NCBI GenBank assembly: GCA_963842815.1
Contig: CAWJHU010000001.1
Span: forward strand, 264,708 to 328,707
Length of the DNA stretch: 64,000 bases
DNA from: Candidatus Nomurabacteria bacterium
GTDB lineage: Bacteria > Patescibacteriota > Minisyncoccia > Phycocordibacterales > UBA9973
Direction: 5' to 3'
Position 1 is the stretch's first letter. Each line of letters begins with the position of its first letter. A model generated the notes under the pieces. The model searched no databases, had not been told where the DNA came from, and saw only the letters and a list, made by a program, of their open reading frames with translations. The position numbers and the translations under genes are program-made. This document shows positions 6,075 through 48,808 of the stretch, piece by piece.

Positions 6075-6181
6075 TATATTTTCGGGGAAAGGTCTTGCCT
6101 TAAAGAGAGCCCAAAGGCAAGTCCTTGAGGAGAAAATGAGTTAATTTGCGTTTTTTATTTGTGTTATGATATACTTTAAAT

Positions 6182-6397: not shown

Positions 6398-6401
6398 GAG
6401 T

Positions 6402-19152: not shown

Positions 19153-19189
<37 letters not shown>

Positions 19190-20932: not shown

Positions 20933-20975
<43 letters not shown>

Positions 20976-21970: not shown

Positions 21971-22301
21971 CGTGAGACAGGTTGGTCTCCTATCTACTGC
22001 ACTCGTTGATTCTTGAGAAGATTTGTTTCTAGTACGAGAGGACCGAAATGAACTGACCTCTGGTGTACGAGCTCTCCTGCCAAGGGCAATGCTCGGTAGC
22101 TATGTCGGGATTGGATAACCTCTGAAAGCATCTAAGAGGGAAGCCAGCTTCAAGATTAGGAATCGTTAAGAACCGTGAGAGATGATCACGTTGATAGGCT
22201 TTAAGTGTAAGCGCAGTAATGCGTTGAGCTGAGAAGTACTAATGTTTCGATTCCTGTTAAGAAATTTGCAAACCACAAAAAATAATAAACTTGAATATAG
22301 T

Positions 22302-33541: not shown

Positions 33542-33781
33542 ATGAAAATCCAAGTGTTAGGTTCTGGTTGCAATACCTGTAAAAAACTATATGAAATAAC
33601 TCAAAAAGCTATAGCTGAATTGGATTTAAATGAGAACGTTGAATATATTACTGATGTTCAAAGGATAGTAGCTATGGGTTTAATGCAAAGCCCTGTTTTG
33701 GCTATAAATGATAAACCAGCTTTAGTTGGTTTTACTTCTGATTTAGAAAAAATAAAAAAATTAATTCAAGAGAACATGTAA
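33542..33781 (+). CDS. thioredoxin-fold CxxC protein (MTH895/TM0996-like redox-active disulfide protein family)
   Basis: 79 aa, MKIQVLGSGCNTCKKLYEITQKAIAEL...VAMGLMQSPVLAINDKPALVGF. These small proteins are typically encoded next to YraQ/ArsP-type permeases. Confidence 0.55.
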   Translation: MKIQVLGSGCNTCKKLYEITQKAIAELDLNENVEYITDVQRIVAMGLMQSPVLAINDKPALVGFTSDLEKIKKLIQENM

Positions 33782-33783
33782 TT

Positions 33784-34750
33784 ATGGATATTTTTTACCC
33801 CATACAATTGCTTGCTGACTGGCTTACTTATTCTATTTTTAATATTGTTCCAAAAACTCTTCTGGCCAGCGCTGTGAATTTTTTCATCTTTGACACAATC
33901 AAAATATTTCTCTTGTTATCGGTAATTATTTTTACTGTTTCAATAATCAGATCATATCTTCCACCAGAGAAAATACGAGCCATCTCTGTCTCATAAAAAC
34001 AAATATGTAGGCAATATTCTGGCTTCGCTGTTGGGAATTATTACTCCTTTTTGTTCCTGTTCTGCTATTCCTTTATTTCTAGGATTTATTCAAGCAGGCG
34101 TTCCGCTTGGGACGACTTTTTCTTTTCTTGTAGCCTCGCCAATGATCAACGAAGTAGCATTAGTGTTGCTTTTAGGATTATTTGGCTGGAAGATTGTCCT
34201 TATCTACATCATAAGCGGATTTAATTATTTCTATTTTGTCGGGGATAGTTATAGGCAAATTAAAAGTGGAAAATTTAGTTGAACCATTTGTCTATCAAAA
34301 TTCAGTAAACGGCAATATTGATTTACCAAATATGTCTCGTCAAGAAAGAATCACTTATGCCAAAGATTACACATAAGATATTATTAAAAAAGTTTGGCTT
34401 ACATCCTAATCGGTATTGGAGTTGGTGCTTGGATACACGGTTATATTCCGGCTGATTTTTTGGCTCAATATGCAGGAAGTGGCAAATGGTATGCCGTACC
34501 TCTGGCTGTACTTATAGGCATTCCTCTATATTCAAACGCTGCTGGAATTATCCCCCTTGTGTCTGCTTTGACTGAGAAAGGAGTATCCATGGGTACCACG
34601 CTTGCTTTTATGATGTCCGTCACCGCTTTGTCTCTGCCAGAATTTATGATTTTGAAAAAGGTGATGAAAATTAAATTAATTTTCATTTTCGCTGGAATAG
34701 TGGCCTTTGGTATTATTTTTACCGGGTATCTCTTTAATTTAGTTTTATAA
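33784..34750 (+). pseudogene. YraQ/UPF0718 (ArsP-like) permease, disrupted into at least 3 reading-frame fragments
   Basis: Fragments 33784..33996, 34031..34282 and 34394..34750 together span the family (..PPEKIR.., GIITPFCSCSAIPLFLGFIQAGVPLGTTFSFLVASPMINEV, then AVPLAVLIGIPLYSNAAGIIPLVSALTEKGVSMGTTLAFMMSVTALSLPEFMILKKV). They are separated by a frameshift near 33990-34030 and a stop-containing gap at 34283-34393. Confidence 0.5.
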
Positions 34751-36595: not shown

Positions 36596-37316
36596 CTACG
36601 GAGGCGTTGCCTCCGTAGCCGTCTCCGTGGATGAATTATTCGTCGTTAAAACTTAGCCATTCAAACAGCTCTTTTTTATAATCAGTCAGTTTTTTAAAAT
36701 AAGCGGGAAATTCTGATGGATTTATAATTTTAAATTTTCCATCTTTGTATTCTTCCATGCTTGAATATGGATATTCAAAAACATATTGTAAAAGTTTCGT
36801 TAAAGGTTTGTTTCTTTCTTCTTTCCAATTTTTGTCTATCAATTTAGCGGGATTTAAATGTATATAGGAATATATGTATTTTAAATATCTATCGTTGTTT
36901 ATGTGGATTGATTTAAATACTCCTTCATATAATTTGCCTGTTCGTTCATATTTTTTATTGAAATACATTGAATAACTAGTCATTAATTTATGTATGTATT
37001 TAGAAATTCCATTTTCTGTCTTTTCACGAACAAGAATATGAAAATGATTTGGCATTAAGCAATATGCTCCTATATTAACTATAGTTTTTCCACGATCAAA
37101 ATTTTTGCCAATATTTCTTAACTCTATACTTTTTGTTGTATTACAAATATGCATTAAAAACAAAAAGTGCTCATAATCTTTTTTATCTATAAAAATAACC
37201 CTTTTTTCCGTTCCACGATTATATAAATGATAATACTCGTTTGGAGCGAAAGATTGTTTTCTTAAGGCCATTTGTTGATTATAACAAAAGGGGACTACGG
37301 AGGCAACGCCTCCGTG
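36596..37316 (-). mobile_element. REP-RAYT unit 2: second Y1 (RAYT-like) transposase gene bracketed by REP-C palindromes (ACGGAGGC-GTT/AAC-GCCTCCGT) and by an imperfect ~25-bp direct repeat of the adjacent gene terminus
   Basis: CTACGGAGGCGTTGCCTCCGTAG at 36596-36618 and CTACGGAGGCAACGCCTCCGTG at 37295-37316. ttaggaagttggagttgttgttgtaac (36571-36597) matches ttaagaggtcggagttgttgttgtagt (37325-37351) at 22 of 25 positions. Confidence 0.6.
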
Positions 37317-37322
37317 TCTCAT
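36636..37322 (-). CDS. REP-associated tyrosine transposase (RAYT), IS200/IS605 Y1 family, paralogue of 10106..10810 (likely true start MALRKQ at 37271; the first 17 codons of the track ORF are encoded by the REP-C palindrome)
   Basis: NEYYHLYNRG, HUH motif CLMPNHFHILV, Tyr region YIHLNPAKL; the Tyr-rich C-terminal tail resembles RAYT1. Confidence 0.7.
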   Translation of the reverse strand: MRHGGVASVVPFCYNQQMALRKQSFAPNEYYHLYNRGTEKRVIFIDKKDYEHFLFLMHICNTTKSIELRNIGKNFDRGKTIVNIGAYCLMPNHFHILVREKTENGISKYIHKLMTSYSMYFNKKYERTGKLYEGVFKSIHINNDRYLKYIYSYIHLNPAKLIDKNWKEERNKPLTKLLQYVFEYPYSSMEEYKDGKFKIINPSEFPAYFKKLTDYKKELFEWLSFNDE

Positions 37323-37327
37323 GACTA

Positions 37328-40267
37328 TTAAGAGGTCGGAGTTGTTGTTGTAGTGGTATCTGTTGCTGGCGTTGTAGTTGTATCTGTTGAAGAATTGGTA
37401 TCGGTAGAAGTTGTATCTGAAGGTGGGGTGGTTGTATCTGTACTTTCCGTAGTTGTGGTGCTTCCTACCGTTACGGTTCTAGTGACCGGCGTTGCCGAAT
37501 GTCCGACCGAATCTGTTGCAGTGTAGGTGATGGTGTAAGTGCCGGCAGTGGATGTGTCAACCGAACCGTTTACCACCACAGCCACATCACCTTCTTTTTC
37601 TGTGGCTACTGCTCCGGCTTCATTATAAGTTGCTCCGATATCCAAGACTACTGTTGTTTCTCCGTTGAGAGTAATAACCGGTACATCCACATCTCCGGAA
37701 GAAATCGTTCCACCTGCTAAGGTAGAACTATCTGATGACGGAGGCAACGCCTCCGTAATGGGGGTGGTAGAAATAAGTGCTGTAGCTGGGGCGCATTCTC
37801 CGAGCGTGGTTTTAGCTTCTCCGTTTACTATAGAGAAACAATTTGGATTGCCGTTTGCTTCATCATAAAGAGTTATGCCGGTAGGTTTTTCCGGACTTCC
37901 GATTTTCAATGCATCCACCACTAAAGATTTCATATAAGCTACGCCGTCTTGAACTTTTACCAGCGCGTCGCTGAAGAAAGAAACAGCATCTTGGCCGAGC
38001 GTGTCGGTAATAATTTGGCCTTTATTCAAATTTTCTATTTGCAGATTTAATTCTTTGATGGAAGCCATTAATAATCCATTCACTGATACTTGGTCAATGG
38101 TATTACCCCACATAAATGCCGGGTCAACTTCATCAGCTATAAATCCGATGCGAACTTTAGCCAGAGGAGAATCGGTGCCATAACCATTAACTTCGTTTTT
38201 ATAACGGAAAGTGTGAAGCGGCGCAGTTAGCACCATATTGAGAGCATCGCTATAATCAGTGTAATCTTTGATATCTTGTTTTGTATTTCTGGTGGAAGTT
38301 TGAGTGCCGATAACTATGCCGGATGTATCATTGGCGCTGGAAGGAGCGGAGTCGCTAACTCTCATATTTCCGGCAGAATCTTGCCAAACATAGCCGGCTC
38401 CGCCGGATTTGTTTAGGAAATTAATAGAACCGGCGGCAGGATCGGTAGTATTTATATTTATACCAAGAGTAATTGTTGGTCCGGCTGTTCCGTCACCTAA
38501 ATCGGAAGAGCCGATTTCTAATACGGTGCTTGGTGTTGCCGTCCCGATACCGATGTTGCCTGAAGAATCAACGACCAGATTTTTCTCTCCGATGGTTAAA
38601 GTATCGGCCGTTAATTTGCCGGTAAAACTAGCGTCGCCATTTTCATTCAAAGTAAAAATATCCGCGCCATTTTGGTTTTTAAAAATCAAACCTTCCGGAT
38701 TACCCGGGCCCTCGGTGATTTTAAAGTTGTTGGCAAAAACTACATCGCCGAAGAACTGGGCGGTTGAAGTGGTGCTATTATTGCCGAGCTGAATCTCACT
38801 AGAGGAAATACCTAAACCAACTTGGTAAGAAGTAGGGGTCGTAGTTAAATTGCCATTGGAATCAACATAATATATTGAACCTGGGGTTAAACCTGTCAAA
38901 CCGTCAGCCACTCCGGAAATAATTACCGGCACACTTTGCCCAGATGAGGTGGTAGTTTTTACTATGCCGACAAATTTTCCAGATGAAGAATAATTAATAA
39001 TAGACTCGCCACTAGTACTGCCACCTCTATTATAAATTACCACGAAATGGGAGGAATCAAGATTGGCTATGGAAATATAATTAGTAGTAGTAGTGCCATT
39101 AAATATAACAGCCGCATTAGGGTAAGTAATAGTTGTACCGGAAGAAACTAGTCCTACTATACTGGCACCATAACCACTAATATTGGCATAAGCTACTGCA
39201 AAATGAGTGGCATCAAGCATTGCCACAGAAATATATGAGGTGGTAGCAGAATTAAAAGCAAGAATTGCACCGTAAGTAATAGTCGTACCGGAAATTGAAC
39301 CTGCTCTGGCAGCACCAAAATCGGTAGCATTATACCAAGCCACCACAAAGTGGGTGGTATCAAGCGTTGCCACGGAATTATATGTAGTGGTAGCATTGGA
39401 CGAAAATTGAACAGGTGTTGTGCCGTAAGTAATGGTGGTGCCAGAAATAGAATTCGCTTTGGCCCAACCGTAACCGGTACTGGTAACCGTATAAGCCACC
39501 ACGAAATTATTGGCACCAAAGGCGGCTACTGAAATATTTGAACAGGCAACAGACCCATCAAAACTAGAAGCTGCAGTAAAAAAGGAAAAGGTTGTACCGG
39601 AAGAAATTAATCCCACCCTGGCAGCACCATAATCGGTAGCATTATACCAAGCCACTACGAAACTAGAAGAACTAAGCGTGGCTACGGAAATATATGAAGT
39701 GGCAACAGAAGCCGAAAATTGAACAGCTGCACCGTAGGCAATGACATTACCGCTGGAAACGGTACCTATAATGGCAGTACCATAAGTGGTACCATTATAA
39801 TAAGCTACCACGAAACTAGAAGAACTAAGCGCAGATACGGAAATATAGGTAGTGGTAGTACCATTGAATGTAAGAGGTGAACCATAAGAAATAGTTGTGC
39901 CGGAAATTGAGCCGATAACGGCGAGGCCAAGGCTGTTTTTAGTATCTGCATAAGCCACCACGAAGTGAGTGGAATCAAGTACAGCTGCAGAAAAAGGGCT
40001 TGTTGGGTTAATATCTGTAAATGCAGCAACTACACCATAAGAAGAAATGGTCGTGTCGCCGTTAGTAAGACCCACAATAGCATTGCCATAATTGTTAGTA
40101 CCAGCGGAATAGTTTGCCACAAAATGGGTGGAATCAAGTGCGGCTATGGAATCATAATCATTACTAGAAACAGAATAAAAAGCAACACCTGCGCCGGTAG
40201 TAATAGTTGTACCGGAGACCAGTCCCACCCTAGCGGCGTGAATATTATTCGCATAATAGTTTACCAC
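37328..40267 (-). CDS. C-terminal part of a giant tail-fibre-like surface protein: ~14 tandem ~45-aa beta repeats, intramolecular-chaperone (Peptidase_S74-like) domain, Ig-like (DUF5011/HYR-like) domain, Thr/Ser-rich tail; probably one gene with 40245..43883, split by a 1-nt frameshift
   Basis: Repeats of type YG.A.VG..SGTTITYG...F....TTYISVA.LDS.HFVVAY. Chaperone-like segment NTKQDIKDYTDYSDALNMVLTAPLHTFRYKNE...RIGFIADEVDPAFMWGN...SVNGLLMASIKELNLQI matches the C-terminal intramolecular chaperone of phage tail fibres/endosialidases. In-frame REP-C copy at 37737-37758. Confidence 0.6.
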   Translation of the reverse strand: MVNYYANNIHAARVGLVSGTTITTGAGVAFYSVSSNDYDSIAALDSTHFVANYSAGTNNYGNAIVGLTNGDTTISSYGVVAAFTDINPTSPFSAAVLDSTHFVVAYADTKNSLGLAVIGSISGTTISYGSPLTFNGTTTTYISVSALSSSSFVVAYYNGTTYGTAIIGTVSSGNVIAYGAAVQFSASVATSYISVATLSSSSFVVAWYNATDYGAARVGLISSGTTFSFFTAASSFDGSVACSNISVAAFGANNFVVAYTVTSTGYGWAKANSISGTTITYGTTPVQFSSNATTTYNSVATLDTTHFVVAWYNATDFGAARAGSISGTTITYGAILAFNSATTSYISVAMLDATHFAVAYANISGYGASIVGLVSSGTTITYPNAAVIFNGTTTTNYISIANLDSSHFVVIYNRGGSTSGESIINYSSSGKFVGIVKTTTSSGQSVPVIISGVADGLTGLTPGSIYYVDSNGNLTTTPTSYQVGLGISSSEIQLGNNSTTSTAQFFGDVVFANNFKITEGPGNPEGLIFKNQNGADIFTLNENGDASFTGKLTADTLTIGEKNLVVDSSGNIGIGTATPSTVLEIGSSDLGDGTAGPTITLGININTTDPAAGSINFLNKSGGAGYVWQDSAGNMRVSDSAPSSANDTSGIVIGTQTSTRNTKQDIKDYTDYSDALNMVLTAPLHTFRYKNEVNGYGTDSPLAKVRIGFIADEVDPAFMWGNTIDQVSVNGLLMASIKELNLQIENLNKGQIITDTLGQDAVSFFSDALVKVQDGVAYMKSLVVDALKIGSPEKPTGITLYDEANGNPNCFSIVNGEAKTTLGECAPATALISTTPITEALPPSSDSSTLAGGTISSGDVDVPVITLNGETTVVLDIGATYNEAGAVATEKEGDVAVVVNGSVDTSTAGTYTITYTATDSVGHSATPVTRTVTVGSTTTTESTDTTTPPSDTTSTDTNSSTDTTTTPATDTTTTTTPTS
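37737..37758. repeat. REP-C palindrome copy in-frame within the giant gene (encodes ..TEALPPS..)
   Basis: gacggaggcaacgcctccgtaa. Confidence 0.65.
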
Positions 40268-43200
40268 AAAATGAGCAGTATCGAGTGCATCTACAGAAGG
40301 GTGATAGCAAGTAACACCACCACCAGGCGAAAATATAACACCTGCGCTGGGTAGTAATAGTTGTACCGGAGACTAGTCCTACCCTAGCGGTACCGTAATT
40401 ACTGTTGTCATCATAAACCATCACGAAATGAGCGGAGTCAAGCTTGGCCAGAGAAAAATTTTGTATACTGGTGGCAGTGGAAGAAAGAGATGCCGTGGGA
40501 AAGGAAAAGGTTGTACCGGAAGAAATTAATCCCACCATAGTGTAACCTTTGTAATCGCTAGTAGTAGTATTAGAAAAACCCACCACAAAGTGGGCAGAAT
40601 CAAGCGCAACTACGGCAATATAAGTAGTAGTAGTGCCATTAAATATAACACCTGAACCAAAAGAAGAAATAGTTATATTGCCATCAGTAACACCCACCTT
40701 AGCCGTACCCCAATGATTGGCAGTATCATCATAAGCTACCGCAAAATAAGTAGAGCTAATCGCGGCTACAGAAATATAACTATTGGTAGTAGAATTGAAA
40801 TTTTTAATTCCGCCAAAAGAGGAAATAGTTACAGAACCGTCAGTAGTACCCACTATAGCATTGCCGTAAGTGCTTGCGTCATTATAAGCCACTACGAAAT
40901 GAGTGGAATTAAGTGCAGATACGGAAATACAAGTAGTGGTATTAGTATTGAAAATAAAAGGTATACCAAAAGTAATAGTTGTACCAGAAACTGAACCAAC
41001 AATAGCTGTACCATAACTATTGGAATCAGTATAAGTTACCACGAAATGGGAGGAATCAAGCTTGGTTGCGTAAGTAGAAGTTACTCTAACGAGAGAAGGA
41101 ATTTTAGTGATTGAGCTTGAAGATATTCCTCCAGGAAAGGCACCACCACTCTTCTTTACTTGATTGTTAATATATTGGACAACATCTCCGGCATTTAGAT
41201 TTTCGCCGGCGGTAAAGTTTTCGGTGAGTTGTTTAAGATTATCCCAACTCATAACGCCAGAACCGTTGGTGGTAAGAGCTTGTCCGCTTGTGCCGTCAGC
41301 GCTAGGCAAAGTATAGGTAGTTGAACCTGCGGCAGCAGCGGCAGTCAGCCCGACATATCCGGAACCTGAACCATCTAAGCGAAGAGCTCCATTCACATCC
41401 AATTTACTCCCTGGCGTCGTTGTTCCAATCCCCACATTGCCCGCGTAGGTTCCTGCTCCGAAGAAACTGGCGATGGTCGTTCCGCCACTGTTTCCGCCTT
41501 TGATGTAAACTGCGTCACCAGAACCAGTCCCGCTGGTGCTGGTAAGAGAAAGAGTGCTTCCTCCCGCTGTGCCACCGTAAATAATAGGAGTAGTGGCAGA
41601 GGTAGTGAAGGTTGGAGTGACAATGGTCGGTGAACCAGAAAAGACTACATTGGTACTTGTTGTTCCAGCTGTCCCTGTTGCACTGGTAAGGTAATTTAAT
41701 TTGGTAGAAGTGGAAGTCAAAGCCACCGCTTCATTCACATTCGGAGAAGTCAAAGTTTTGTTGGTTAAGGTCTGGGTTCCATCTATGGTAACTACGCTGG
41801 TGGCAGTATTTGTCGGAGTGGTAATTTTCAAGGTTCCGGTGCCGAGAGTGAGTATGCCGGAAGTATGGGTCAAAACTACATTGGAGTTGGCATAATTAAT
41901 GACCGCCCCGCTGGCCAGAAACAAATCGGAGAAATTGTGGGTGATATCTCCCAAAGGCGCGCCGTCATCCGAGGTTGGAGATATTTCGGTGGTGATGGTG
42001 GGGGTGGTAAGGACGGGACTTTCCAAAAAAGCAAAAGTTTTTCTAGCAGCGCCGGTAGTAATAGTTCCATAATATTTATCTGTTAAAAATTCCACTGCTC
42101 CAGCTTCTGGGGCCGACAGAAGCGTTCCGCTGGTAAATTTTAACGGAGAGCTTCCGGCTGTTGCCGTGCCGGCTCTTAAATCAAGAGTTGCTGTGGGCGC
42201 AGAAGCCCCCAAACCGATGCCCACATTGCCATTTGTTCCAACCAAACGAAAATTTGTGGTGCCACCACTGCTGGCAATTGCCAAGCCACCGTCTTCCGGA
42301 GCAGTAATATTTCCTCTGCTGGTCGGATAACCGAAATATATTGCTCCCGCTTGGTCAAGAACGGCATTGCGGGTATATACATCATAGCCTCCATTCACTG
42401 TGATATCTCCGTTGGTAGTAATTCCACCATTCACATCCAAAGTATCGCCCGGATTGGTTGTTCCGATGCCCACATTGCCAGCCTTAAAATAAATGCCGGT
42501 GGTAGAAGAGGGGCCGATCCAGGATTCAGCCGGAGTGATGAGAGGATTGATTTGATTAAAGGTGTTGGAGGTATTTGTATAGACTCCATTGGTTACCGAG
42601 CCGGCATTTCCGGAAATACTTGAATCGGTAAAGGCGAATTGTTTTCTGGCCGCACCGGTAGTAATGGTTCCATAAAATTTATCGCTGTTGAATTCTACCG
42701 CCCCAGCCTCGGGGGCTGAGAGAAGAGTTCCGTCAGTGAATTTCAGTGGCGCAGTTCCTGCTGAAGCTGTGCCTGCTTTCAAGTTAAGAACTGCGGAAGG
42801 GGAAGGAACGCCGACGCCTACATTGCCCGCAGAATTAACCACAAGCTTTGCCGTGCCGTCTGTTATTAAGGATAACATTCCCGCTCCGTCCCCTCCGATG
42901 CCGGTGGTTCCGTCGGAAGCAATTCCGAATGAGGTTCTGTTAATGGTAGGATTATTATCTGCCGCAAATTGTCCAGTAGTAACAAAATTGCCTCCGCCGG
43001 TTATATAGGCCACTCTGGTGGATGCGCTATTCCATTCCATAATAGAATTGCCGTCAGTGCTGTTGCTTCGAACCACCAGAGCGGTAGGTCCGATGCCCGT
43101 CCCGCTTAAATCGCGAAACCATAAGCCGGTGCCCGGATAATCTTTTGATTCTACGCTTAGAGCGCTTGTTGACCCGGTAGGAATAGTAATGCCATTTTTA

Positions 43201-43883
43201 AAATCTTGGGCCTGAGAAGTTGCGCCTGTAATCGAACCATCCGCCAGCAGAACGCCGGACACATCACTACCGGCGATCGTATCCCAAGCGGGAATAGCAC
43301 CATTAGTGCCATCACCTGTCATCCTAAGGAATTTTTTTGTAATGGTTGTGTTTGGAGTTAGAAGGGTAGTGGTATTTGTGTCCGATTGATATGGAATAGA
43401 GCCAAGCAGGGTAGTGGGATTTCCGCCAATGATATTCAATGCGGTTTCGGACACTACAGCAGCAGGAACAGCGCCAAGTTTTTTGCGTGGAACCATTTCT
43501 CCATCGCTTTCAATATTCACGCCCAAATAAAGTGTTTGGTTGAAATTAACTCCGGTCAGGGGAGTAACTTCTCCCAACATCACGCTAAAGAGTCCGCTGG
43601 TCACTTGCACTTTATCTCCTCCGGTCCTGGTTTCTGTCCACAAAAGATGTGCGGGTGAATCGCTTAAAGTCGGGTCATTATACAATTTAAATTCCATACT
43701 GTAAGTGCCGTTTGGAACAGCTATCCCGAGACTGTTGGTAAGTTTACCCTGATAATTTATTTGCTTATTTATCTGAGCGGAAACATTTGTGAATGGGGAA
43801 AGTATAAAAATTAAAATAAACAAACAACAAATTAAAAAATTTATTAAATAAAATCTTTCTTTTTTTGTAAATAAAATCTTCAT
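40245..43883 (-). CDS. N-terminal part of the giant tail-fibre-like surface protein (signal/anchor, internally duplicated ~200-aa modules, start of the ~45-aa repeat array)
   Basis: N-terminal MKILFTKKERFYLINFLICCLFILIFILSPFTNVSAQ; duplicated blocks AGTAPLKFTDGTLLSAPEAGAVEFNSDKFYGTITTGAARKQFAF / AGSSPLKFTSGTLLSAPEAGAVEFLTDKYYGTITTGAARKTFAF. The last ~45 aa (QRRCYIFAWWWCYLL...) are out-of-frame sequence after a 1-nt insertion near 40343. Confidence 0.6.
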   Translation of the reverse strand: MKILFTKKERFYLINFLICCLFILIFILSPFTNVSAQINKQINYQGKLTNSLGIAVPNGTYSMEFKLYNDPTLSDSPAHLLWTETRTGGDKVQVTSGLFSVMLGEVTPLTGVNFNQTLYLGVNIESDGEMVPRKKLGAVPAAVVSETALNIIGGNPTTLLGSIPYQSDTNTTTLLTPNTTITKKFLRMTGDGTNGAIPAWDTIAGSDVSGVLLADGSITGATSQAQDFKNGITIPTGSTSALSVESKDYPGTGLWFRDLSGTGIGPTALVVRSNSTDGNSIMEWNSASTRVAYITGGGNFVTTGQFAADNNPTINRTSFGIASDGTTGIGGDGAGMLSLITDGTAKLVVNSAGNVGVGVPSPSAVLNLKAGTASAGTAPLKFTDGTLLSAPEAGAVEFNSDKFYGTITTGAARKQFAFTDSSISGNAGSVTNGVYTNTSNTFNQINPLITPAESWIGPSSTTGIYFKAGNVGIGTTNPGDTLDVNGGITTNGDITVNGGYDVYTRNAVLDQAGAIYFGYPTSRGNITAPEDGGLAIASSGGTTNFRLVGTNGNVGIGLGASAPTATLDLRAGTATAGSSPLKFTSGTLLSAPEAGAVEFLTDKYYGTITTGAARKTFAFLESPVLTTPTITTEISPTSDDGAPLGDITHNFSDLFLASGAVINYANSNVVLTHTSGILTLGTGTLKITTPTNTATSVVTIDGTQTLTNKTLTSPNVNEAVALTSTSTKLNYLTSATGTAGTTSTNVVFSGSPTIVTPTFTTSATTPIIYGGTAGGSTLSLTSTSGTGSGDAVYIKGGNSGGTTIASFFGAGTYAGNVGIGTTTPGSKLDVNGALRLDGSGSGYVGLTAAAAAGSTTYTLPSADGTSGQALTTNGSGVMSWDNLKQLTENFTAGENLNAGDVVQYINNQVKKSGGAFPGGISSSSITKIPSLVRVTSTYATKLDSSHFVVTYTDSNSYGTAIVGSVSGTTITFGIPFIFNTNTTTCISVSALNSTHFVVAYNDASTYGNAIVGTTDGSVTISSFGGIKNFNSTTNSYISVAAISSTYFAVAYDDTANHWGTAKVGVTDGNITISSFGSGVIFNGTTTTYIAVVALDSAHFVVGFSNTTTSDYKGYTMVGLISSGTTFSFPTASLSSTATSIQNFSLAKLDSAHFVMVYDDNSNYGTARVGLVSGTTITTQRRCYIFAWWWCYLLSPFCRCTRYCSFCGKLLCE

Positions 43884-43886
43884 TTA

Positions 43887-44267
43887 CTAATTTATTGCCT
43901 CTGGGTCGGGGGAGAGCGTTTTTTTTCCTTCCTCCAAAATTACTTTGCTATTTTTATCATGAAAATAAATTCCAAGCAGAAAAATACCCAGAAAAATAAT
44001 TCCGGTCAATATCAAAATTTTTTGGGTTCTTTTTCGGGAGAAAAATTCTCCAACGGCAAATTTTCTATGACGGATTTTTTGCTTAAAAATGTAATCTTTT
44101 ATCTCTTCTTCGGTGGTGAACCAATTGCCTCCGACTTTTTCGCCTTTTATCTCTCCTTTGCGGATTAAAGCGCTTAAATAGTCCGAATGATATCCGGTAA
44201 TCCTGGATGCCTGGCTCAGAGAGATAACTTTTTTAATATTTTCCATTTCTACAAAGATATATAACAA
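43887..44267 (-). CDS. small HTH (excisionase/MerR-like) DNA-binding protein with C-terminal TM helix
   Basis: KVISLSQASRITGYHSDYLSALIRKGEIKGEKVGGNWFTTEEEIKDYI is HTH-like; hydrophobic ILILTGIIFLGIFLLGIYF follows. Alternative start MENIKK at 44246. Confidence 0.4.
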   Translation of the reverse strand: MLYIFVEMENIKKVISLSQASRITGYHSDYLSALIRKGEIKGEKVGGNWFTTEEEIKDYIFKQKIRHRKFAVGEFFSRKRTQKILILTGIIFLGIFLLGIYFHDKNSKVILEEGKKTLSPDPEAIN

Positions 44268-44393: not shown

Positions 44394-45707
44394 CTAAGCC
44401 TTATTTTGTTGAGTTTTTTGCCTAGTTTTTAGGAAAAATCCTATTAAAAATAGTATTAACAAAATGACAATTATGTAAATATAGTAATCAATGTAAATAT
44501 TACCATAGGGCTCTTCAACCACTGGCGGTATGTTTTCTCTGACATTCAGCAATCCTTCGCTTATTATTGTTTGCACATCATCTTTATATCTAAAAATTTC
44601 CACGTTGTAAGTCCCGGCTTTTCCCAACGGGGGAATGACGCTCTGATAGCGTCCGCTGTCCAGATTAAATGAAAATAAATATTGTCCGAAGAGTTTTCCG
44701 TTTTCATCAGTGATGGTCATAAAGTCGTCCGGCAAAGTTTTTGAATTTGTATCAATGACAGTATCTTTGTCATTGTCTATGGTAATAGCTTTGGCGCTCA
44801 CAAGCGGTTCAACCAGCTGATTGTATTGGTGCGCGAAAAAAGTTCCGGTAATAAAAACTTGAAGCGGTATCACTTCCGCCGGTTTTTGCGGAGGAATTGC
44901 CTCCGGAGAATAAGCCACCTGGGAAGCTCCCACTCCCACCGAAAAATTTCCTTTGGTATCTCTGGCAAATAATACATAAAAATATTTTTTGCCTGGGATG
45001 ACATCTTTATCCAGAAATTTTTCTGTAGAACCCTCATAGATTAATTTTCCCCAAAATGGGTCTCCATAAAAACGGTCTTCATGCCGCATAATGCGGATGT
45101 AGGAAAAATTATTATCGGGCGGATTCTGCCAGGTAATGGTGATGCCGGAAATATCCGCCGAAGTTTTTACATTGCGGGGACTCAGCGGGAAAATCGTATT
45201 GACTAAAAATTTTGTGAAGAAATAGATCGGCTGGGAAATATTAATTTTTCCGCTGGTGTCCCGGCTTTCAATGGTAAAATAATACATCGTTCCCGCCTTG
45301 AGATTTATTATTTCCATTTTGTGCTCTCTGGCAAAAATAACACTTTCCAGAGTTCCTTCCTGAACTTCGGTGGTTTGGCCCCATTTTATGGTACTAATGG
45401 TGCTGAGAGAACTGTCCCAGGAAATAACTGCGCTTGTAAAGCTTGGTTCTATGGACAAATTATATAGATAGATATTTTGCTCCGGCAATATGGTCATTCC
45501 GCCCGGAGGAGAAGGAGGAGTGGGGGCGGCACAATCCACAGGACAGCTGAGCGCCGTTTCGCCGGGTTCACATAGGCCGTTATTATTGCATCCGCTTACT
45601 CCCAAATTTACCTGAATATCGTCTGAAGCCGCAAAAACAGGGACAATATTAGCCCCCAGTAAAGATGCCAAAAAAAAGACATAAATAATTTTTCCGAATC
45701 TCTTCAT
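44394..45707 (-). CDS. secreted protein with Cys-rich N-terminal region, two fibronectin-III-like domains and C-terminal TM anchor
   Basis: Signal peptide; ...SAVISWDSS...YYFTIESRDTSG and ...ITITWQNPPDNNFSYIRIMRHED...YFYVLFARDTKGN FN3-like units; C-terminal IYIIVILLILFLIGFFL. Confidence 0.45.
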   Translation of the reverse strand: MKRFGKIIYVFFLASLLGANIVPVFAASDDIQVNLGVSGCNNNGLCEPGETALSCPVDCAAPTPPSPPGGMTILPEQNIYLYNLSIEPSFTSAVISWDSSLSTISTIKWGQTTEVQEGTLESVIFAREHKMEIINLKAGTMYYFTIESRDTSGKINISQPIYFFTKFLVNTIFPLSPRNVKTSADISGITITWQNPPDNNFSYIRIMRHEDRFYGDPFWGKLIYEGSTEKFLDKDVIPGKKYFYVLFARDTKGNFSVGVGASQVAYSPEAIPPQKPAEVIPLQVFITGTFFAHQYNQLVEPLVSAKAITIDNDKDTVIDTNSKTLPDDFMTITDENGKLFGQYLFSFNLDSGRYQSVIPPLGKAGTYNVEIFRYKDDVQTIISEGLLNVRENIPPVVEEPYGNIYIDYYIYIIVILLILFLIGFFLKTRQKTQQNKA

Positions 45708-45719
45708 AACTCTTCTATC

Positions 45720-46499
45720 TTATAACGTTATGGCAGTTACAACAATCGGAGCGGAATAATTTCCTGCCGGCTGAATATGATTGGCTCCTGATTCCGCGCG
45801 AAAACGAACAGTCACCGCATCTCCGCTGGGGTCGGTTCTAACTGTTTTTTGAGCTATTATTTTCGGCGAAAGAGAAAGTCCGTCCCAGCATTTGCTTTGA
45901 GTTTCTTCCGTTCCAGTATTGCATGTTGAACTATTATTATTTAAAAAACGAGCCGAGGTATCTGTTCCTTCCGGAGAAAATCCAAAAGCCGATGTGGAAG
46001 GGTCAATGGAAAAATTATAATCAGGGTCCGGACTGCTTGCTGGCACATAATCCGCAAAAGAATTGGAACCGGAAGTAAGCGCCGGGGTGCTATCAGTTTT
46101 TATATTCATGCTATAGCCGGCGGAGTTGTCCGTGTTTATCTGCCAAACCAGTGTTCCTTCGCTGGCCTCGCCGTTTATTCCGCCCATTGGGGCCAATACC
46201 AAATCGGAAGGAATGGTAACAGCAATATAACTTTCCTGCATCTGCCAAAAACCTGCATGCATATAATAGGTGTTGCTGTTTGAATTTCCGGTGCCAACTT
46301 CTCCGGCCGTATCGCCAAGCTTATATATTGAACTGGAAGAATCTGCTCCGCCGGCATTGATGGAATCGGAAGTTATTTTATAGGTGTTGCTGTGCATGGC
46401 TTCTGCCAGGACTAGGTAAAAAGGCAGCATTAAGAAAAGAATAAGTGAAAAAAGTACGGCACTTCTTTTTTTGTAAAAAGGCATAATAATTTTTTTCAT
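45720..46499 (-). CDS. secreted beta-rich protein, paralogue of 47500..48342 (WxL-like candidate)
   Basis: Signal peptide; shared block GTLVWQINTDNSAGYSMNIKTDSTPALTSGSNSFADY (compare SSSWTVKTNSTNGYTLAVKASASPALVSGGNSFADY in the paralogue). Confidence 0.45.
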   Translation of the reverse strand: MKKIIMPFYKKRSAVLFSLILFLMLPFYLVLAEAMHSNTYKITSDSINAGGADSSSSIYKLGDTAGEVGTGNSNSNTYYMHAGFWQMQESYIAVTIPSDLVLAPMGGINGEASEGTLVWQINTDNSAGYSMNIKTDSTPALTSGSNSFADYVPASSPDPDYNFSIDPSTSAFGFSPEGTDTSARFLNNNSSTCNTGTEETQSKCWDGLSLSPKIIAQKTVRTDPSGDAVTVRFRAESGANHIQPAGNYSAPIVVTAITL

Positions 46500-46503
46500 T
46501 TTC

Positions 46504-47481
46504 TTATGGCTGTTTTTTTCTTAACTCAAAACGTGTCAAGAAATAGTAAGCGAGAGCGACAAGGAAAGCGAGAGAGACAAATCCCACAAGAAGTATCTTC
46601 CATGGAAGCACCCAGAAGGATAAATTTACATCCTGATATAAATCGCTGTATCCTTTATTCAAGTGAAGACTAGCCGTGTAATAGCCAAGGCTAAAACCGG
46701 CGGTCCAGTCCACATCTCTGTATCTGGTGGAATCCGGAAGCACGAAATAGGCATCTACCGGCAGTGAACTGACAACTTTGCCGAACATATTTTTGATGGT
46801 TATCATTCCGTAGGGAACAAGATGGACATTTCCTGTATTTTTATAGGCGATTTCAAATCCTTCCGGCCTTGCGTCGTAAAAAGCTTTCTGCGGTCCGATC
46901 AGTTTGAAACTTTCAACATTTCCTTCTTCTTTTCCTTCGCCGTTTATTTTAAGCAAAAAAAGCGAACCGATTCTGGAAATAATTCTCGTTTGCCCCTGCA
47001 CTTCGGCGGAGCCTCCGCTTGTCAAAGTGTCCGGTTCATTGGAAACAATAAGCGCTCCATAATATCCCCGCGGTTCGGCATTTTTGGGAACGGAGATGGT
47101 CACCGGAATGACAATTTTTTCTCCCAGCTCCAGAGAAAATTCGCTGATTTCAGGAACAATAAAATCTTTCAGAGAATATGGACTATGGGTATCGCCCAAA
47201 AGCACCACTGGCTGTTTCGGGTCGTCGGTTCCCACAAAATCTTCGGTGGTAAGTTTAAATTTAACGGTTTTATTTATACGGTTGGTGATGGTAATATTTT
47301 TCACCATGTTCTCTCCGGGATTCAAAAACACTTCCGTCTTTCCGGGTTCTACCACGAAATCATTTTGAGCAACCATATTTGTTTTGCTTTTTTGGAAAGC
47401 CGATGAATACCGAGGCGCAACAACACCACCAAGAATGATAGATATGGCGATTATATATAAAAATTTTTTCATATTAGACAA
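46504..47481 (-). CDS. secreted protein with C-terminal TM anchor (architecture like DUF916/DUF3324 CscA-type cell-surface proteins)
   Basis: 325 aa, signal peptide, beta-rich body, C-terminal ILLVGFVSLAFLVALAYYFL + RFELRKKQP. The DUF916 assignment is by architecture only. Confidence 0.4.
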   Translation of the reverse strand: MSNMKKFLYIIAISIILGGVVAPRYSSAFQKSKTNMVAQNDFVVEPGKTEVFLNPGENMVKNITITNRINKTVKFKLTTEDFVGTDDPKQPVVLLGDTHSPYSLKDFIVPEISEFSLELGEKIVIPVTISVPKNAEPRGYYGALIVSNEPDTLTSGGSAEVQGQTRIISRIGSLFLLKINGEGKEEGNVESFKLIGPQKAFYDARPEGFEIAYKNTGNVHLVPYGMITIKNMFGKVVSSLPVDAYFVLPDSTRYRDVDWTAGFSLGYYTASLHLNKGYSDLYQDVNLSFWVLPWKILLVGFVSLAFLVALAYYFLTRFELRKKQP

Positions 47482-47499
47482 AAGATAAACAGCTCCGAA

Positions 47500-48342
47500 T
47501 TATAATGCCGTAGCCGTGGCGGTAATGGTGGCAGTATAAGTTCCGGAAGGCGCGTAAACGGAATTTTGCGCTGCGGCAAAACAAATTGTCGTTGCGATGC
47601 CGGCATTAGGAGTAACGGCAGCTCTTGTGGCGATTGTATGGTTGGACATAGAAAACCCCGCATAATTTTGAGAGCCATCCGGTACGCCGGCTGAACCGCA
47701 GGATGCGGCTGTTCCCCATGTTCCCGTATCCGTGTCGGTACCGTAGGCTGAATATCCGAATTCTTTATTCCCAACGCCTACGCTCCAGGTTGCGGGCGTA
47801 CCTCCCGCATGATAATCGGCAAACGAATTGCCACCGCTTACCAAAGCCGGAGAAGCGGATGCTTTTACCGCCAGGGTATATCCGTTGGTTGAATTTGTTT
47901 TAACCGTCCAGGAAGAAGAACCGATTGCCGAGTCGCTGGCTACGCCGATATTAGGGGCCATCAAAACATCTGCGCCGGCCGAAATGGTAATGCCTGAAGT
48001 AACATCAAGAGTGACATGAACATCATTGGTGCCGGCGAACTCCGCGGTAACAGTTATGTCTCCTACCACTGTTAAATCTGTTCTTGCGGCCGTTAATACA
48101 TCATCGCTCCATTTTACAAATAAATAACCGGCATCCGGTACGGCTGTTACCTCTGTTCCATCTCCACCTGCAGTTACCGTTTGCGGATTACTGCCGGTAA
48201 TGGAACCGCCGGTTGTTGGAATATAGGTCAGTGTGTAGGAAGTGGCGGCTACCACAAGCGGATAAAATTGAACCACAAAAAAAGTAAAGAGAGCCGCAAA
48301 ACCCAGCACAATTTTTTTATTAAAATTTATTTTTATTTTCAT
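47500..48342 (-). CDS. secreted protein with Listeria-Bacteroides-type repeat (Flg_new-like) and WxL-like C-terminal region; paralogue of 45720..46499
   Basis: Signal peptide; LTYIPTTGGSITGSNPQTVTAGGDGTEVTAVPDAGYLFVKWSDDVLTAARTDLTVVGDITVTAEF repeat; shared C-terminal block with 45720..46499. Confidence 0.45.
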   Translation of the reverse strand: MKIKINFNKKIVLGFAALFTFFVVQFYPLVVAATSYTLTYIPTTGGSITGSNPQTVTAGGDGTEVTAVPDAGYLFVKWSDDVLTAARTDLTVVGDITVTAEFAGTNDVHVTLDVTSGITISAGADVLMAPNIGVASDSAIGSSSWTVKTNSTNGYTLAVKASASPALVSGGNSFADYHAGGTPATWSVGVGNKEFGYSAYGTDTDTGTWGTAASCGSAGVPDGSQNYAGFSMSNHTIATRAAVTPNAGIATTICFAAAQNSVYAPSGTYTATITATATAL

Positions 48343-48734: not shown

Positions 48735-48807
48735 GCCACCCTAGCTCAGTTGGTAGAGCACCGCTTTCGTAAAGCGGGGGTCCGCAGTTCAATCCTGCGG
48801 GGTGGCT
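48735..48807 (+). tRNA. tRNA-Thr (anticodon CGT)
   Basis: GCCACCCTAGCTCAGTTGGTAGAGCACCGCTTTCGTAAAGCGGGGGTCCGCAGTTCAATCCTGCGGGGTGGCT has anticodon stem CCGCT/AGCGG and loop TTCGTAA. Confidence 0.7.
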
Positions 48808-48808
48808 C

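What the first reader, a model, noticed from the sequence alone, without database searches (positions are those of the whole stretch)
37328..43883. A single ~6.6-kb tail-fibre-like giant gene split by a 1-nt indel inside a repeat; C-terminal intramolecular-chaperone domain
The end of ORF 40245..43883 (..YGTARVGLVSGTTITTQRRCYIF..) and the start of ORF 37328..40267 (..HAARVGLVSGTTITTGAGVAFYS..) are adjacent copies of the same DNA repeat. The downstream copy has gcgcTGGGtag where the other has gcgcCGGtag, i.e. one extra base near 40343. Removing it gives a continuous frame, ..TSAGVIFSPGGGVTCYHPSVDALDTAHFVVNYYANNIHAARVGL.., that follows the repeat consensus, so the two ORFs are one gene of about 2,190 aa. 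Its C-terminal region contains a Peptidase_S74-type intramolecular chaperone-like segment (NTKQDIKDYTDYSDALNMVLTAPLHTFRYKNE...RIGFIADEVDPAF...NGLLMASIKELNLQI), an Ig-like domain and a Thr-rich tail. This architecture matches phage tail fibres and endosialidases that auto-cleave after folding. The interruption could be a sequencing error, a pseudogene, or slippage-based phase variation.
Basis: partly seen in the sequence, partly recalled or inferred. Interest (0 to 1): 0.6.

Follow-up and report, generated by a model that had tools for sequence, protein, structure and literature searches.

The report
Frameshifted giant surface-fibre gene, Patescibacteria
Two neighbouring genes are really one 2,184-residue gene for a secreted cell-surface fibre of an ultrasmall (Patescibacteria/CPR) bacterium. 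It borrows a phage-type self-cleaving folding domain and is interrupted by one extra base, which makes it a correctly spotted but fairly ordinary broken gene.

Summary
ORF 40245..43883(-) and ORF 37328..40267(-) overlap in two frames, and removing one C of the CCC at 40349-40351 gives a single 2,184-aa ORF.

Three lines of evidence say this is one gene:
- The syntenic orthologue (P0002/P0003) carries the same architecture in one ORF, and its alignment runs straight through the break.
- The corrected protein has 14 repeat units of 49-54 aa. Related proteins carry these units mostly in runs of 7 or 13-14.
- Units 1-7, including the repaired junction, model confidently (pLDDT 87.8) as a closed seven-bladed beta-propeller. 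The break falls in blade 5.

The C-terminal features are confirmed:
- Peptidase_S74 scores 27.7 bits, above its cut-off of 22.
- A Thr|Ser...Lys(+5) motif matches phage T5 pb1.
- A Bact_surface_Ig-like domain scores 70 bits.
- The protein ends in a Thr-rich tail.

It is not a phage tail fibre. The window is cellular Patescibacteria DNA (23S/5S rRNA, seven tRNA calls, SecDF, GatA, PyrG). The protein has an N-terminal signal peptide, and no phage families or phage records match.

The break site is only a C3 run, so slippage-based phase variation and programmed frameshifting are unsupported. Whether the extra base is a real recent mutation (which I favour slightly) or a consensus error cannot be decided without reads.

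Interest is low to moderate. This is a new member of a known kind.

The parts
37328..43883 (-). The whole gene. It is one 2,184-aa reading frame once one C at 40349-40351 is removed. The stop codon is at 37328-37330.
   Evidence: A single BLASTP segment against orthologue P0002 covers residues 816-1790 and spans the break at residue 1178/1179.
40349..40351 (-). Frameshift site, a CCC run holding one extra base. Thr1178 (ACC) is at 40350-40352. After correction Ser1179 (AGC) is at 40346-40348.
40247..40375 (-). Zone where both reading frames are open. The last 34 residues of ORF A (QRRCYIFAWWWCYLLSPFCRCTRYCSFCGKLLCE) are out-of-frame sequence that does not fit the repeat.
43776..43883 (-). N-terminal Sec-type signal peptide, residues 1-36. 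It has a Lys/Arg-rich start, a 20-residue hydrophobic core and ends in VSA followed by Gln.
   Evidence: Read directly from the sequence. Relatives start the same way. No signal-peptide predictor was available.
43359..43775 (-). Conserved N-terminal domain (INKQINYQGKLTN...FNQTLYLGV...PRKKLGAVPAA), residues about 37-175. It is shared by many Patescibacteria giant proteins.
   Evidence: 57% identity to P0002 over residues 7-174. No Pfam model matches it.
41094..43358 (-). Long Gly/Thr/Ser-rich stalk with recurring GNVGIGTT.P...L motifs, residues about 176-930.
   Evidence: Sequence and alignment consensus with relatives. The fold was not modelled.
40013..41093 (-). Propeller 1: repeat units 1-7, residues 931-1290. 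The frameshift falls in unit (blade) 5.
38945..40012 (-). Propeller 2: repeat units 8-14, residues 1291-1646.
Evidence: Foldseek's best matches to that model are proteins with tandem double propellers.
38297..38944 (-). Post-propeller domain and second stalk leading into the cleavage site, residues 1647-1862. It ends ...GIVIGTQT.
   Evidence: Sequence. The residues just before the cleavage site are strongly conserved with P0002 and P0004.
38114..38296 (-). Peptidase_S74 intramolecular-chaperone domain. The putative nucleophile Ser1863 is at 38294-38296, Lys1868 lies at +5, and the predicted scissile bond is Thr1862|Ser1863.
   Evidence: 27.7 bits against a cut-off of 22; profile positions 1-53.. 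The mechanism is from phage T5 pb1 (PMC4690869).
37466..37675 (-). Bacterial surface Ig-like domain (PF16403).
   Evidence: 70.4 bits. PDB sequence match to the 2kpn Ig-like domain.
37331..37462 (-). Thr-rich C-terminal tail of about 44 residues.
43887..44267 (-). Conserved upstream partner: a 126-aa protein with an excisionase-like HTH plus a transmembrane helix. It ends TAG TAA immediately before the giant gene's ATG.
   Evidence: It is 57% identical to the gene at the equivalent position in L002. The same module is fused to the N-terminus of the S74 giant protein P0024.
44394..45707 (-). Conserved upstream partner: a 437-aa fibronectin-III protein.
   Evidence: It is 46% identical to the 437-aa gene upstream of P0004 in L002.

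Best explanation
The locus is one gene of a Patescibacteria (CPR) cell. It encodes a 2,184-residue secreted surface fibre.

**Domain order.** Sec signal peptide, conserved N-terminal domain, long Gly/Thr-rich stalk, two tandem seven-bladed beta-propellers (14 units of about 51 aa), second stalk, Peptidase_S74 intramolecular-chaperone domain, small Cys-containing domain, Ig-like domain, Thr-rich tail.

**Inferred mechanism, by analogy with phage K1F endosialidase, T5 pb1 and MYRF.**
1. The protein is exported.
2. The S74 domain nucleates trimerisation of the preceding stalk.
3. The S74 domain then cuts the Thr1862|Ser1863 bond, with Ser1863 activated by Lys1868.
4. This releases a 322-residue C-terminal fragment and leaves a trimeric fibre of about 1,830 residues that displays six propellers.
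5. The propellers most plausibly act as ligand- or glycan-binding heads for attachment to a host or partner cell.

**State of the gene in this assembly.** One extra C in blade 5 of the first propeller interrupts the gene. As written, the product would be a 1,212-aa protein with 4.8 blades, 34 out-of-frame residues and no chaperone domain, so it should not fold into a fibre.

**Origin of the extra base.** This cannot be settled here. I put a genuine, very recent insertion or population variant at about 0.55, an assembly or consensus error at about 0.35, and everything else at about 0.1.

**Shown versus inferred.** Shown: one gene, the domain content, the propeller fold (as a model), the Ser/Lys motif and the cellular context. 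Inferred: export, trimerisation, self-cleavage and the adhesive role.
For: **One gene.**
- The frame correction gives a continuous ORF.
- The repeat HMM shows that the register passes from frame 0 to frame +1 within unit 5.
- P0002 (2,504 aa) has the same architecture, including 14 units, in one ORF. Its alignment to the corrected protein is one segment covering residues 816-1790.
- P0003, identical to P0002 apart from a 450-aa gap in the array, lies in locus L001. That locus is syntenic with the window: the giant gene converges on a block of a 207/212-aa gene, GatA, TPM, LemA and SecF (GatC was seen only in L001).
- In related proteins the arrays are mostly 7 or 13-14 units long, with some runs of 5-6. 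ORF A alone holds 4.8 units and ORF B 9.2.
- ORF B has no ATG for its first 350-odd codons. Its GTG candidates at 40267 and 40228 lack a properly spaced Shine-Dalgarno sequence.
- 8 of 9 untruncated relatives in named genomes are intact ORFs that begin with a hydrophobic N-terminus.

**S74 domain.**
- The Pfam match is above threshold and starts at profile position 1 on Ser1863.
- The motif T|S-T-R-x-T-K is invariant in the closest relatives. S.R..K..I is present in 17 of 21 related genome loci.
- The spacing is the same as T5 pb1 Thr1263|Ser1264...Lys1269 (PMC4690869).

**Cellular, not viral.**
- The window holds 23S and 5S rRNA, seven tRNA calls, SecD/SecF, LemA, GatA, a two-component system, a release factor and CTP synthase.
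- All 23 related loci are Patescibacteria MAGs.

**Surface role.** Very large Patescibacteria proteins are reported to be preferentially surface-targeted and are proposed to act in host recognition (PMC13059738).

**Evidence leaning towards a real mutation.**
- The site is only a C2-to-C3 change, a type of error uncommon on current sequencing platforms.
- Other long genes in the window (1,166, 1,065, 862, 617 and 548 aa) and the 23S rRNA are intact.
- The same window holds a clearly decayed ArsP permease with three frame changes and an in-frame stop.
Against: - No reads and no independent assembly of this population could be found, so a consensus error cannot be excluded.
- The 2.9 kb downstream of the break carries no further lesion. 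That fits an artefact as well as it fits a very recent mutation.
- The public gene calls on the 337,777-bp source contig list two proteins, of 1,212 and 966 aa.
- Trimerisation, self-cleavage, export and binding were not tested. The models are monomeric predictions.
- The MSA for the good propeller model was built from 7-unit windows cut from repeat arrays, which is an unconventional alignment.
- The S74 domain here is not C-terminal. The released fragment would carry Ig-like and Thr-rich parts, so which fragment stays on the cell is unknown.
- No anchoring motif (LPXTG or a C-terminal transmembrane helix) is evident in the C-terminal sequence.
Confidence: 0.8

Rival explanations
1. The extra C is an assembly or consensus artefact, possibly a minority allele promoted to the consensus. 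In the organism the gene is intact and expressed as the full 2,184-aa fibre.
For: - The 979 codons after the break carry no second lesion.
- The corrected junction fits the repeat profile and models well.
- Only one assembly contains this sequence.
- Repeat arrays of this family are handled badly by assemblers or are otherwise unstable. P0003 equals P0002 minus exactly nine units, and many related genes sit at contig ends.
Against: - A C2-to-C3 miscall is not a typical error of current platforms.
- The rest of the window shows no scatter of indels in long genes or in the rRNA.
- A mis-join between repeat units would remove or add whole 153-nt units, not one base.
- The genome demonstrably carries at least one true pseudogene nearby.
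Confidence: 0.35
2. The two ORFs are two real, separately translated genes, as in the public gene calls. One would be an N-terminal secreted protein and the other a C-terminal S74 protein.
For: Public gene calling lists P0001 (1,212 aa) and P0121 (966 aa) on the same contig.
Against: - The split cuts through blade 5 of a seven-bladed propeller.
- ORF A ends in 34 non-repeat, Trp/Cys-rich out-of-frame residues.
- ORF B has no signal peptide, no ATG for its first 350-odd codons and no convincing ribosome-binding site.
- The repeat register of unit 6 begins upstream of ORF B's first start codon.
- The syntenic orthologue is one ORF.
- Most relatives are single ORFs.
Confidence: 0.04
3. The frame change is functional recoding. 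That would mean a programmed +1 ribosomal frameshift or transcriptional slippage, or a slippage-based phase-variation switch.
For: - Both frames are open over 129 nt.
- Surface proteins are classic targets of phase variation.
- A CCC-U site that can favour +1 slippage exists further downstream in frame 0.
Against: - The site that restores the repeat consensus is a C3 run with no long homopolymer or simple-sequence repeat. The gene's longest runs are T7, and they lie elsewhere.
- Orthologues are in frame, so no frameshift signal is conserved.
- Shifting at the downstream CCC-U would leave about 18 non-consensus residues inside a blade.
- The repeat units are 44-72% identical in DNA and invisible to Tandem Repeats Finder, so unit slippage is unlikely. 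It would in any case change length in frame.
Confidence: 0.03
4. It is a phage or prophage tail fibre or endosialidase-type tailspike residing in the bacterial genome.
For: - The S74 chaperone domain is best known from phage tail fibres and tailspikes (PMC4690869).
- NCBI names some relatives 'tail fiber domain-containing protein'.
- The propeller model has remote relatives among uncultured viral proteins (TM 0.80, 27% identity).
- A small excisionase-like HTH gene and an IS200/RAYT-like gene flank the locus.
Against: - I found no phage structural, packaging or lysis genes among the neighbours I scanned. They are housekeeping or cell-surface genes.
- The locus is syntenic with related CPR chromosomes.
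- The protein has an N-terminal signal peptide instead of a virion-attachment domain.
- Neither ORF hits a PHROG family.
- The S74 cassette has no tblastn hit in phage records and no relative in IMG/VR.
- The propellers are seven-bladed and show no Pfam sialidase or GH58 match.
Confidence: 0.05

Closest known systems
C-terminal intramolecular chaperone domains (Peptidase_S74) of phage K1F endosialidase and phage T5 L-shaped tail fibre pb1
   Same: The Pfam S74 match is above threshold. The predicted scissile bond is Thr|Ser with Lys at +5, identical in spacing to pb1 Thr1263|Ser1264...Lys1269. The domain follows a long repetitive stalk, and a helix-forming segment (NGLLMASIKELNLQIENL) follows the motif.
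   Different: The host is a cell, not a virion, and there is no phage context. The protein has a signal peptide. The S74 domain is internal: the released piece would be 322 aa and would include a Cys-containing domain, an Ig-like domain and a Thr-rich tail. The similarity shows only at profile level, with no phmmer hit to PDB chains and no tblastn hit to phages.
[quoted passage not shown]
   Same: In both, an S74-type domain sits in the middle of a larger protein, so cleavage separates two substantial fragments (papers listed, including PMC3742443 and PMC8326128).
   Different: MYRF is a eukaryotic ER-membrane transcription factor whose cleavage releases an N-terminal DNA-binding part. Here the whole protein is predicted to be extracellular, and the DNA-binding-like HTH is a separate upstream membrane protein. 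There is no sequence relationship beyond the S74 fold family.
Patescibacteria giant surface proteins annotated 'tail fiber domain-containing protein', 'immunoglobulin-like domain-containing protein' or 'beta strand repeat-containing protein' (for example P0002, P0025, P0029, P0050)
   Same: They share the N-terminal INYQGKLT domain, GNVGIGTT stalk motifs, the S74 cassette with STR.TKQDI, the PF16403 Ig-like domain and the acidic or Thr-rich tail. They occur in the same phylum. The closest ones (P0002/P0003) are syntenic orthologues.
   Different: This copy is frameshifted. The middle 'head' differs between members. None of the 21 related loci examined in species-representative genomes has the propeller units. 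P0004 at the equivalent locus has a different middle region.
Seven-bladed beta-propellers: the CylK C-terminal domain, the PLL and BP39L lectins, integrin alpha, and the archaeal S-layer YVTN propeller
   Different: Sequence identity is 6-12%. No Pfam, NCBIfam or PHROG model covers the LDSTHFVVAY...GTAIVGTVSGTTI repeat, although 3,475 cluster representatives carry it. No binding-site residues could be transferred from any of these structures.

Membership tests
Peptidase_S74 / intramolecular chaperone auto-processing domain | Profile match above the curated gathering threshold | tested here: met
   PF13884 scores 27.7 bits against a cut-off of 22 (E 3.3e-6). ORF B residues 658-718 align to profile positions 1-53 of 58.
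Peptidase_S74 / intramolecular chaperone auto-processing domain | Nucleophile Ser at the start of the domain with the activating Lys five residues later | tested here: met
   Ser1863 and Lys1868 sit in T|STRNTK. Both are invariant in P0002 and P0004. S.R..K..I occurs in 17 of 21 related loci. The spacing matches T5 pb1 Ser1264/Lys1269 (PMC4690869).
Peptidase_S74 / intramolecular chaperone auto-processing domain | Trimerisation-dependent self-cleavage that releases the chaperone | not testable with these tools
   This needs expression of the C-terminal fragment with and without S1863A, or at least a trimer structure prediction. Only monomer models were available.
Peptidase_S74 / intramolecular chaperone auto-processing domain | Domain lies at the extreme C-terminus (classical phage form) | tested here: not met
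   322 residues follow the scissile bond. About 260 of them lie beyond the Pfam S74 match and include an Ig-like domain and a Thr-rich tail. This resembles the internal arrangement in MYRF.
Phage tail fibre / tailspike | Encoded within a phage or prophage, next to virion structural genes | tested here: not met
   The neighbours are a two-component system, a decayed ArsP permease, tRNAs, GatA, SecDF, a release factor, PyrG and surface proteins. Apart from weak excisionase hits on the small upstream HTH protein and one weak tail hit (phrog_31, E 4.8e-5, on the fn3 protein), the four neighbouring ORFs scanned have no PHROG hit.
Phage tail fibre / tailspike | Sequence relatives in phage genomes | tested here: not met
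   Neither ORF hits a PHROG family. tblastn of the S74 cassette against 50,697 phage records finds nothing. No relative was confirmed in IMG/VR. Only fold-level relatives of the propeller appear among uncultured viral proteins.
Endosialidase (GH58) | Six-bladed sialidase propeller with GH58 catalytic signature | tested here: not met
   The array holds 14 units forming seven-bladed propellers. No sialidase, BNR or GH58 Pfam hit appears even at E 0.1.
Seven-bladed beta-propeller fold | Seven four-stranded blades closing into a ring | tested here: met
Phase-variable contingency locus | Frameshift located in a long homopolymer or short tandem repeat tract | tested here: not met
   The site is CCC. 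The gene has no run longer than T7, and those runs are elsewhere. Tandem Repeats Finder finds no relevant array.
Programmed ribosomal frameshift | Frameshift conserved in orthologues, with a slippery site | tested here: not met
   Orthologues P0002 and P0003 are in frame through the equivalent region. ACC-C is not a recognised +1 slippery site (my own knowledge).

The most novel reading that the evidence does not exclude
The gene may be part of a conserved Patescibacteria surface module of three genes: a fibronectin-III protein, a membrane-anchored HTH protein and an S74-matured giant fibre. In this reading a large propeller family with no existing model (3,475 cluster representatives, no Pfam/NCBIfam/PHROG model) serves as an exchangeable host-binding head on a constant N-terminal and C-terminal chassis. 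The fused form of the HTH-TM module in P0024 would hint that fibre engagement is coupled to a cytoplasmic DNA-binding domain. The frameshift would then be a genuine on/off variant of host attachment segregating in the population.
Probability: 0.12. Interest if true: 0.5.

Novelty: new member of a known kind. Interest (0 to 1): 0.3.

Why it matters
For annotation, the two public gene calls (1,212 and 966 aa) should be merged into one frameshifted gene or pseudogene.

For biology, giant surface proteins are the leading candidates for how ultrasmall epibiotic Patescibacteria recognise their hosts. This one shows a clear modular plan: a constant export and anchor end, a phage-type self-cleaving folding cassette, and a swappable head made of two seven-bladed propellers from a large family with no profile model. 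If the break is real, it would mark natural loss or switching of one attachment fibre.

Tried and rejected
- **Independent copies of the locus.** Exact-protein look-ups for both public gene products found no contig on record. Two exact DNA-pattern scans of JGI metagenome contigs, each accepting either allele, found nothing. The first genome-contig scan, with ORF B, found no relative, so the source genome is not among the species representatives. The error-versus-mutation question therefore stayed open.
- **Alignment too diverse for locus searching.** A nine-protein alignment (A4) had no stretch conserved enough to search with. I replaced it with a three-sequence C-terminal alignment (A5), which worked.
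- **First structure job.** Modelling all 14 units with a 13-sequence MSA gave pLDDT 58 and a poorly resolved first half. I solved this by building an MSA of 7-unit windows.
- **Searches for a named family covering the repeat or the N-terminal domain.** Pfam, NCBIfam and PHROGs gave nothing. The scattered weak Pfam hits (Agenet, Lipoprotein_23, Clathrin_propel in a few members) I take to be spurious.
- **PDB sequence search of the C-terminal 490 aa.** It found only Ig-like domains and no S74 chain.
- **Widespread indel errors in the assembly.** I considered this and rejected it. The overlapping ORF pairs at 34797/35413 and 29486/30097 are separate intact genes. 6170-6587 is an intact HicB/HicA-type pair. 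Only ArsP is demonstrably broken.
- **The upstream in-frame HTH ORF as the true start of the giant gene.** I rejected this. Two stop codons separate them, and the giant protein starts with its own signal peptide, as its relatives do.
- **Literature.** I found no paper linking Peptidase_S74 to the Candidate Phyla Radiation.

Full report
**1. Observation**

The ORF list confirms 40245..43883(-) at 1,212 aa and 37328..40267(-) at 979 aa.

On the minus strand, frame 0 runs from the ATG at 43883 to a stop at 40245-40247. The +1 frame has its last stop at 40375 and then stays open to 37328. The two frames therefore overlap over 129 nt.

Unit 5 ends ...GTCTCCGGTACAACTATTACTACC-C-AGCGCAGGTGTT, and unit 6 ends ...GTCTCCGGTACAACTATTACTACC-GGCGCAGGTGTT.

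**2. Is the correction more than wishful reading?**

I defined 14 repeat units of 49-54 aa covering residues 931-1646. I then built an HMM from the 12 units that do not touch the break. The result:
- In frame 0 the profile match stops at position 45 of 52 (...TTITTQ).
- In frame +1 the next unit starts at profile position 2 (VTCYHPSVDAL...). That is upstream of any start codon of ORF B.
- The corrected sequence matches positions 3-52.

The last 34 residues of ORF A (QRRCYIFAWWWCYLLSPFCRCTRYCSFCGKLLCE) look nothing like the repeat.

ORF B has no ATG for its first 350-odd codons. Its GTG candidates have no properly spaced Shine-Dalgarno sequence.

**3. Relatives**

A search with the merged protein returned Patescibacteria giant proteins named Nomurabacteria, Paceibacterota, Parcubacteria and Minisyncoccia.

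P0001 is ORF A itself, and P0121 is ORF B from residue 14. Both lie on one 337,777-bp NCBI/ENA contig, so the public record calls two genes.

The best true relatives, P0002 (2,504 aa) and P0003 (2,054 aa), carry the complete architecture in one ORF: signal peptide, INYQGKLT domain, stalk, LDSTHFVVAY repeats, second stalk, S74 motif, Ig-like domain and Thr-rich tail. BLASTP aligns corrected residues 816-1790 to P0002 in a single segment across the break.

P0003's contig (L001) is syntenic with the window. The giant gene converges on a block of a 207-aa gene, GatA, GatC, TPM, LemA and SecF. The window has SecD, SecF, LemA, TPM, GatA and a 212-aa gene in the same relative orientation; GatC was not checked in the window. 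The positional orthologue is therefore one gene.

**4. The repeat array**

A full HMMER scan with units 6-14 found 3,475 cluster representatives at E <= 1e-3, of which 461 score <= 1e-30. No Pfam, NCBIfam or PHROG model covers the repeat.

Array lengths in relatives are mostly 7 or 13-14 units, and P0002 has 14 like the corrected gene. ORF A alone would hold 4.8 units and ORF B 9.2.

It was all-beta and reasonably confident for units 8-14, and its best Foldseek matches were tandem double propellers such as Elp2 and Utp21.

With an MSA of 7-unit windows (27 rows), units 1-7 including the repaired junction gave pLDDT 87.8 and pTM 0.89. The 10-residue blocks after the junction (model residue 259) average 81-95.

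The break therefore lies in blade 5 of the first of two seven-bladed propellers.

**5. The C-terminal module**

Pfam gives Peptidase_S74 at 27.7 bits (cut-off 22) and Bact_surface_Ig-like at 70.4 bits.

Profile position 1 falls on Ser1863 (window 38294-38296). The local sequence is T|STRNTK, with Lys at +5. This is the same geometry as T5 pb1, where Thr1263|Ser1264 is cut after Ser1264 is activated by Lys1269 (PMC4690869).

Ser and Lys are invariant in the closest relatives. An S.R..K..I motif is present in 17 of 21 related loci from named genomes.

Cleavage would release 322 residues, made up of the S74 domain, a small Cys-containing domain, the Ig-like domain and the Thr-rich tail. The domain is thus internal, as in MYRF, rather than terminal as in phages.

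**6. Phage or cell?**

The window carries:
- a 23S and a 5S rRNA gene and seven tRNA calls, one of them inside the 23S gene;
- SecD/SecF, LemA, TPM, GatA, a response regulator and histidine kinase, a release factor, an ABC ATPase and CTP synthase.

Neither ORF hits a PHROG family. The S74 cassette has no tblastn match in 50,697 phage records and no confirmed relative in IMG/VR. It is found in 23 species-representative genomes, all labelled as Patescibacteria lineages or 'uncultured bacterium'. Of the nine untruncated ones, eight are single ORFs starting with a hydrophobic N-terminus.

None of those 21 relatives has the propeller units. P0004, at an equivalent locus, has a different middle region. 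The family is therefore modular: constant ends and a variable head. Only fold-level relatives of the propeller (TM 0.80, 27% identity) appear among uncultured viral proteins.

This is a cellular surface protein that uses a phage-type maturation domain. It is not a tail fibre.

**7. Neighbours**

Directly upstream lie a 126-aa HTH-plus-TM protein and a 437-aa fibronectin-III protein. The HTH gene ends TAG TAA just before the giant gene's ATG. Both are conserved upstream of P0004, at 57% and 46% identity.

In P0024, two copies of the same HTH plus the TM helix are fused to the N-terminus of an S74 giant protein. That fusion links the small gene functionally to the fibre.

Further upstream are more surface-type proteins, including one with an InlB B-repeat. 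An IS200/RAYT-like gene lies 5 nt downstream.

**8. Nature of the break**

The site is a C3 run. The gene's only longer runs are two T7 tracts elsewhere. Tandem Repeats Finder sees no DNA array, and the units are 44-72% identical in DNA. Orthologues are in frame. Phase variation and programmed frameshifting are therefore unsupported.

The indel lies inside a 54-nt tract that is about 93% identical between units 5 and 6, whereas the two units overall are 65% identical. This hints at a local conversion or slippage event. A mis-join by an assembler would change length by whole units, not by one base.

Other long genes and the 23S rRNA in the window are intact. The suspicious ORF overlaps I checked turned out to be separate genes. 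The ArsP permease at 33784-34750 has three frame changes and an in-frame stop, which is real decay.

These points lean towards a genuine, very recent insertion. Against that, the clean 2.9 kb downstream and the lack of any second assembly keep a consensus error well in play. My split is about 0.55 real, 0.35 artefact and 0.1 other.

**9. Mechanism**

Shown: domain order, motif conservation, the propeller fold (as a model) and the cellular context.

Inferred from the S74 literature (papers listed) and from the reported surface targeting of very large Patescibacteria proteins (PMC13059738):
- Sec export;
- S74-nucleated trimerisation of the stalk;
- self-cleavage at Thr1862|Ser1863;
- a mature trimeric fibre with six propellers acting as binding heads.

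As assembled, the truncated 1,212-aa product lacks the chaperone and has an incomplete propeller, so the allele should be non-functional.

**10. Verdict**

Its phage framing and its phase-variation suggestion are not supported.

The finding is a frameshifted member of a known, widely annotated class of Patescibacteria giant surface proteins. Two side points carry modest interest: a large propeller repeat family with no model, and a conserved HTH-TM partner.

Noticed in passing
window 18654-22261 (+), tRNA-like call at 19937-20014: The 23S rRNA match spans 3,608 nt against a 2,925-position model, so it holds about 680 nt of extra sequence. ARAGORN (tRNA-Glu, anticodon ttc) and Rfam (tRNA, 55.2 bits) both call a tRNA inside the 23S gene. 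ORFs inside the region have no Pfam hit. No 16S gene is in the window.
   Followed up: partly
window 33784-34750 (+): An ArsP_1-type permease is broken into at least four pieces. The frames run 0, then 1, then 2, then 1, and there is an in-frame TAA. An intact 79-aa Thioredoxin_3 gene (33542-33781) precedes it. This is a true multi-lesion pseudogene and is relevant as background for whether frameshifts in this genome are real.
   Followed up: partly
window 43887-44267 (-) and 44394-45707 (-); L002:1606-1968 and L002:119-1432: A 126-aa excisionase-like HTH protein with a transmembrane helix and a 437-aa fibronectin-III protein sit just upstream of the giant gene. Both are conserved (57% and 46% identity) upstream of the related giant gene P0004. 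In P0024 two copies of the HTH plus the TM helix are fused to the N-terminus of an S74 giant protein.
   Followed up: partly
L001:25-6189 (P0003) compared with P0002: P0003 equals P0002 minus exactly 450 aa (nine repeat units), with the junction inside identical repeat sequence. This leaves five units, which is not a multiple of seven. It is either assembly collapse or a real recombinational deletion of the propeller array.
   Followed up: partly
loci L003-L025 (23 Patescibacteria genomes): The stalk-plus-S74 cassette (AGYVWQ...T|STR.TKQDI...HTFRY...GFIADEVD) is shared by giant proteins with otherwise different middle regions. Lineages include Paceibacterota, Nomurabacteria, Staskawiczbacteria, Doudnabacteria, Moraniibacteriota and bins labelled Saccharibacteria. 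Many of these genes sit at contig ends.
   Followed up: partly
window 36636-37322 (-): An IS200/Y1-transposase-like gene lies 5 nt downstream of the giant gene's stop. It matches REP-associated tyrosine transposase at 38.9 bits, below the curated cut-off. The orthologous locus L001 has a GIY-YIG gene at that position instead.
   Followed up: no
window 48809-49693 (+): A peptide-chain release factor ORF begins immediately after tRNA-Thr (48735-48808). It covers the PCRF profile only from position 85, so its N-terminal part is missing, in another frame, or genuinely short.
   Followed up: no
window 14830-15633 (-): Three consecutive short ORFs of 141, 71 and 64 aa overlap by 13-20 nt in different frames and have no Pfam hits. 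This could be another frameshifted gene or just small unknown genes.
   Followed up: partly
window 45720-48342 (-): A run of same-strand genes lies upstream of the fibre cluster. The 259- and 325-aa proteins have no Pfam hit, and the 280-aa protein carries an InlB B-repeat (Flg_new_2) domain. This suggests a larger cell-surface gene cluster.
   Followed up: no
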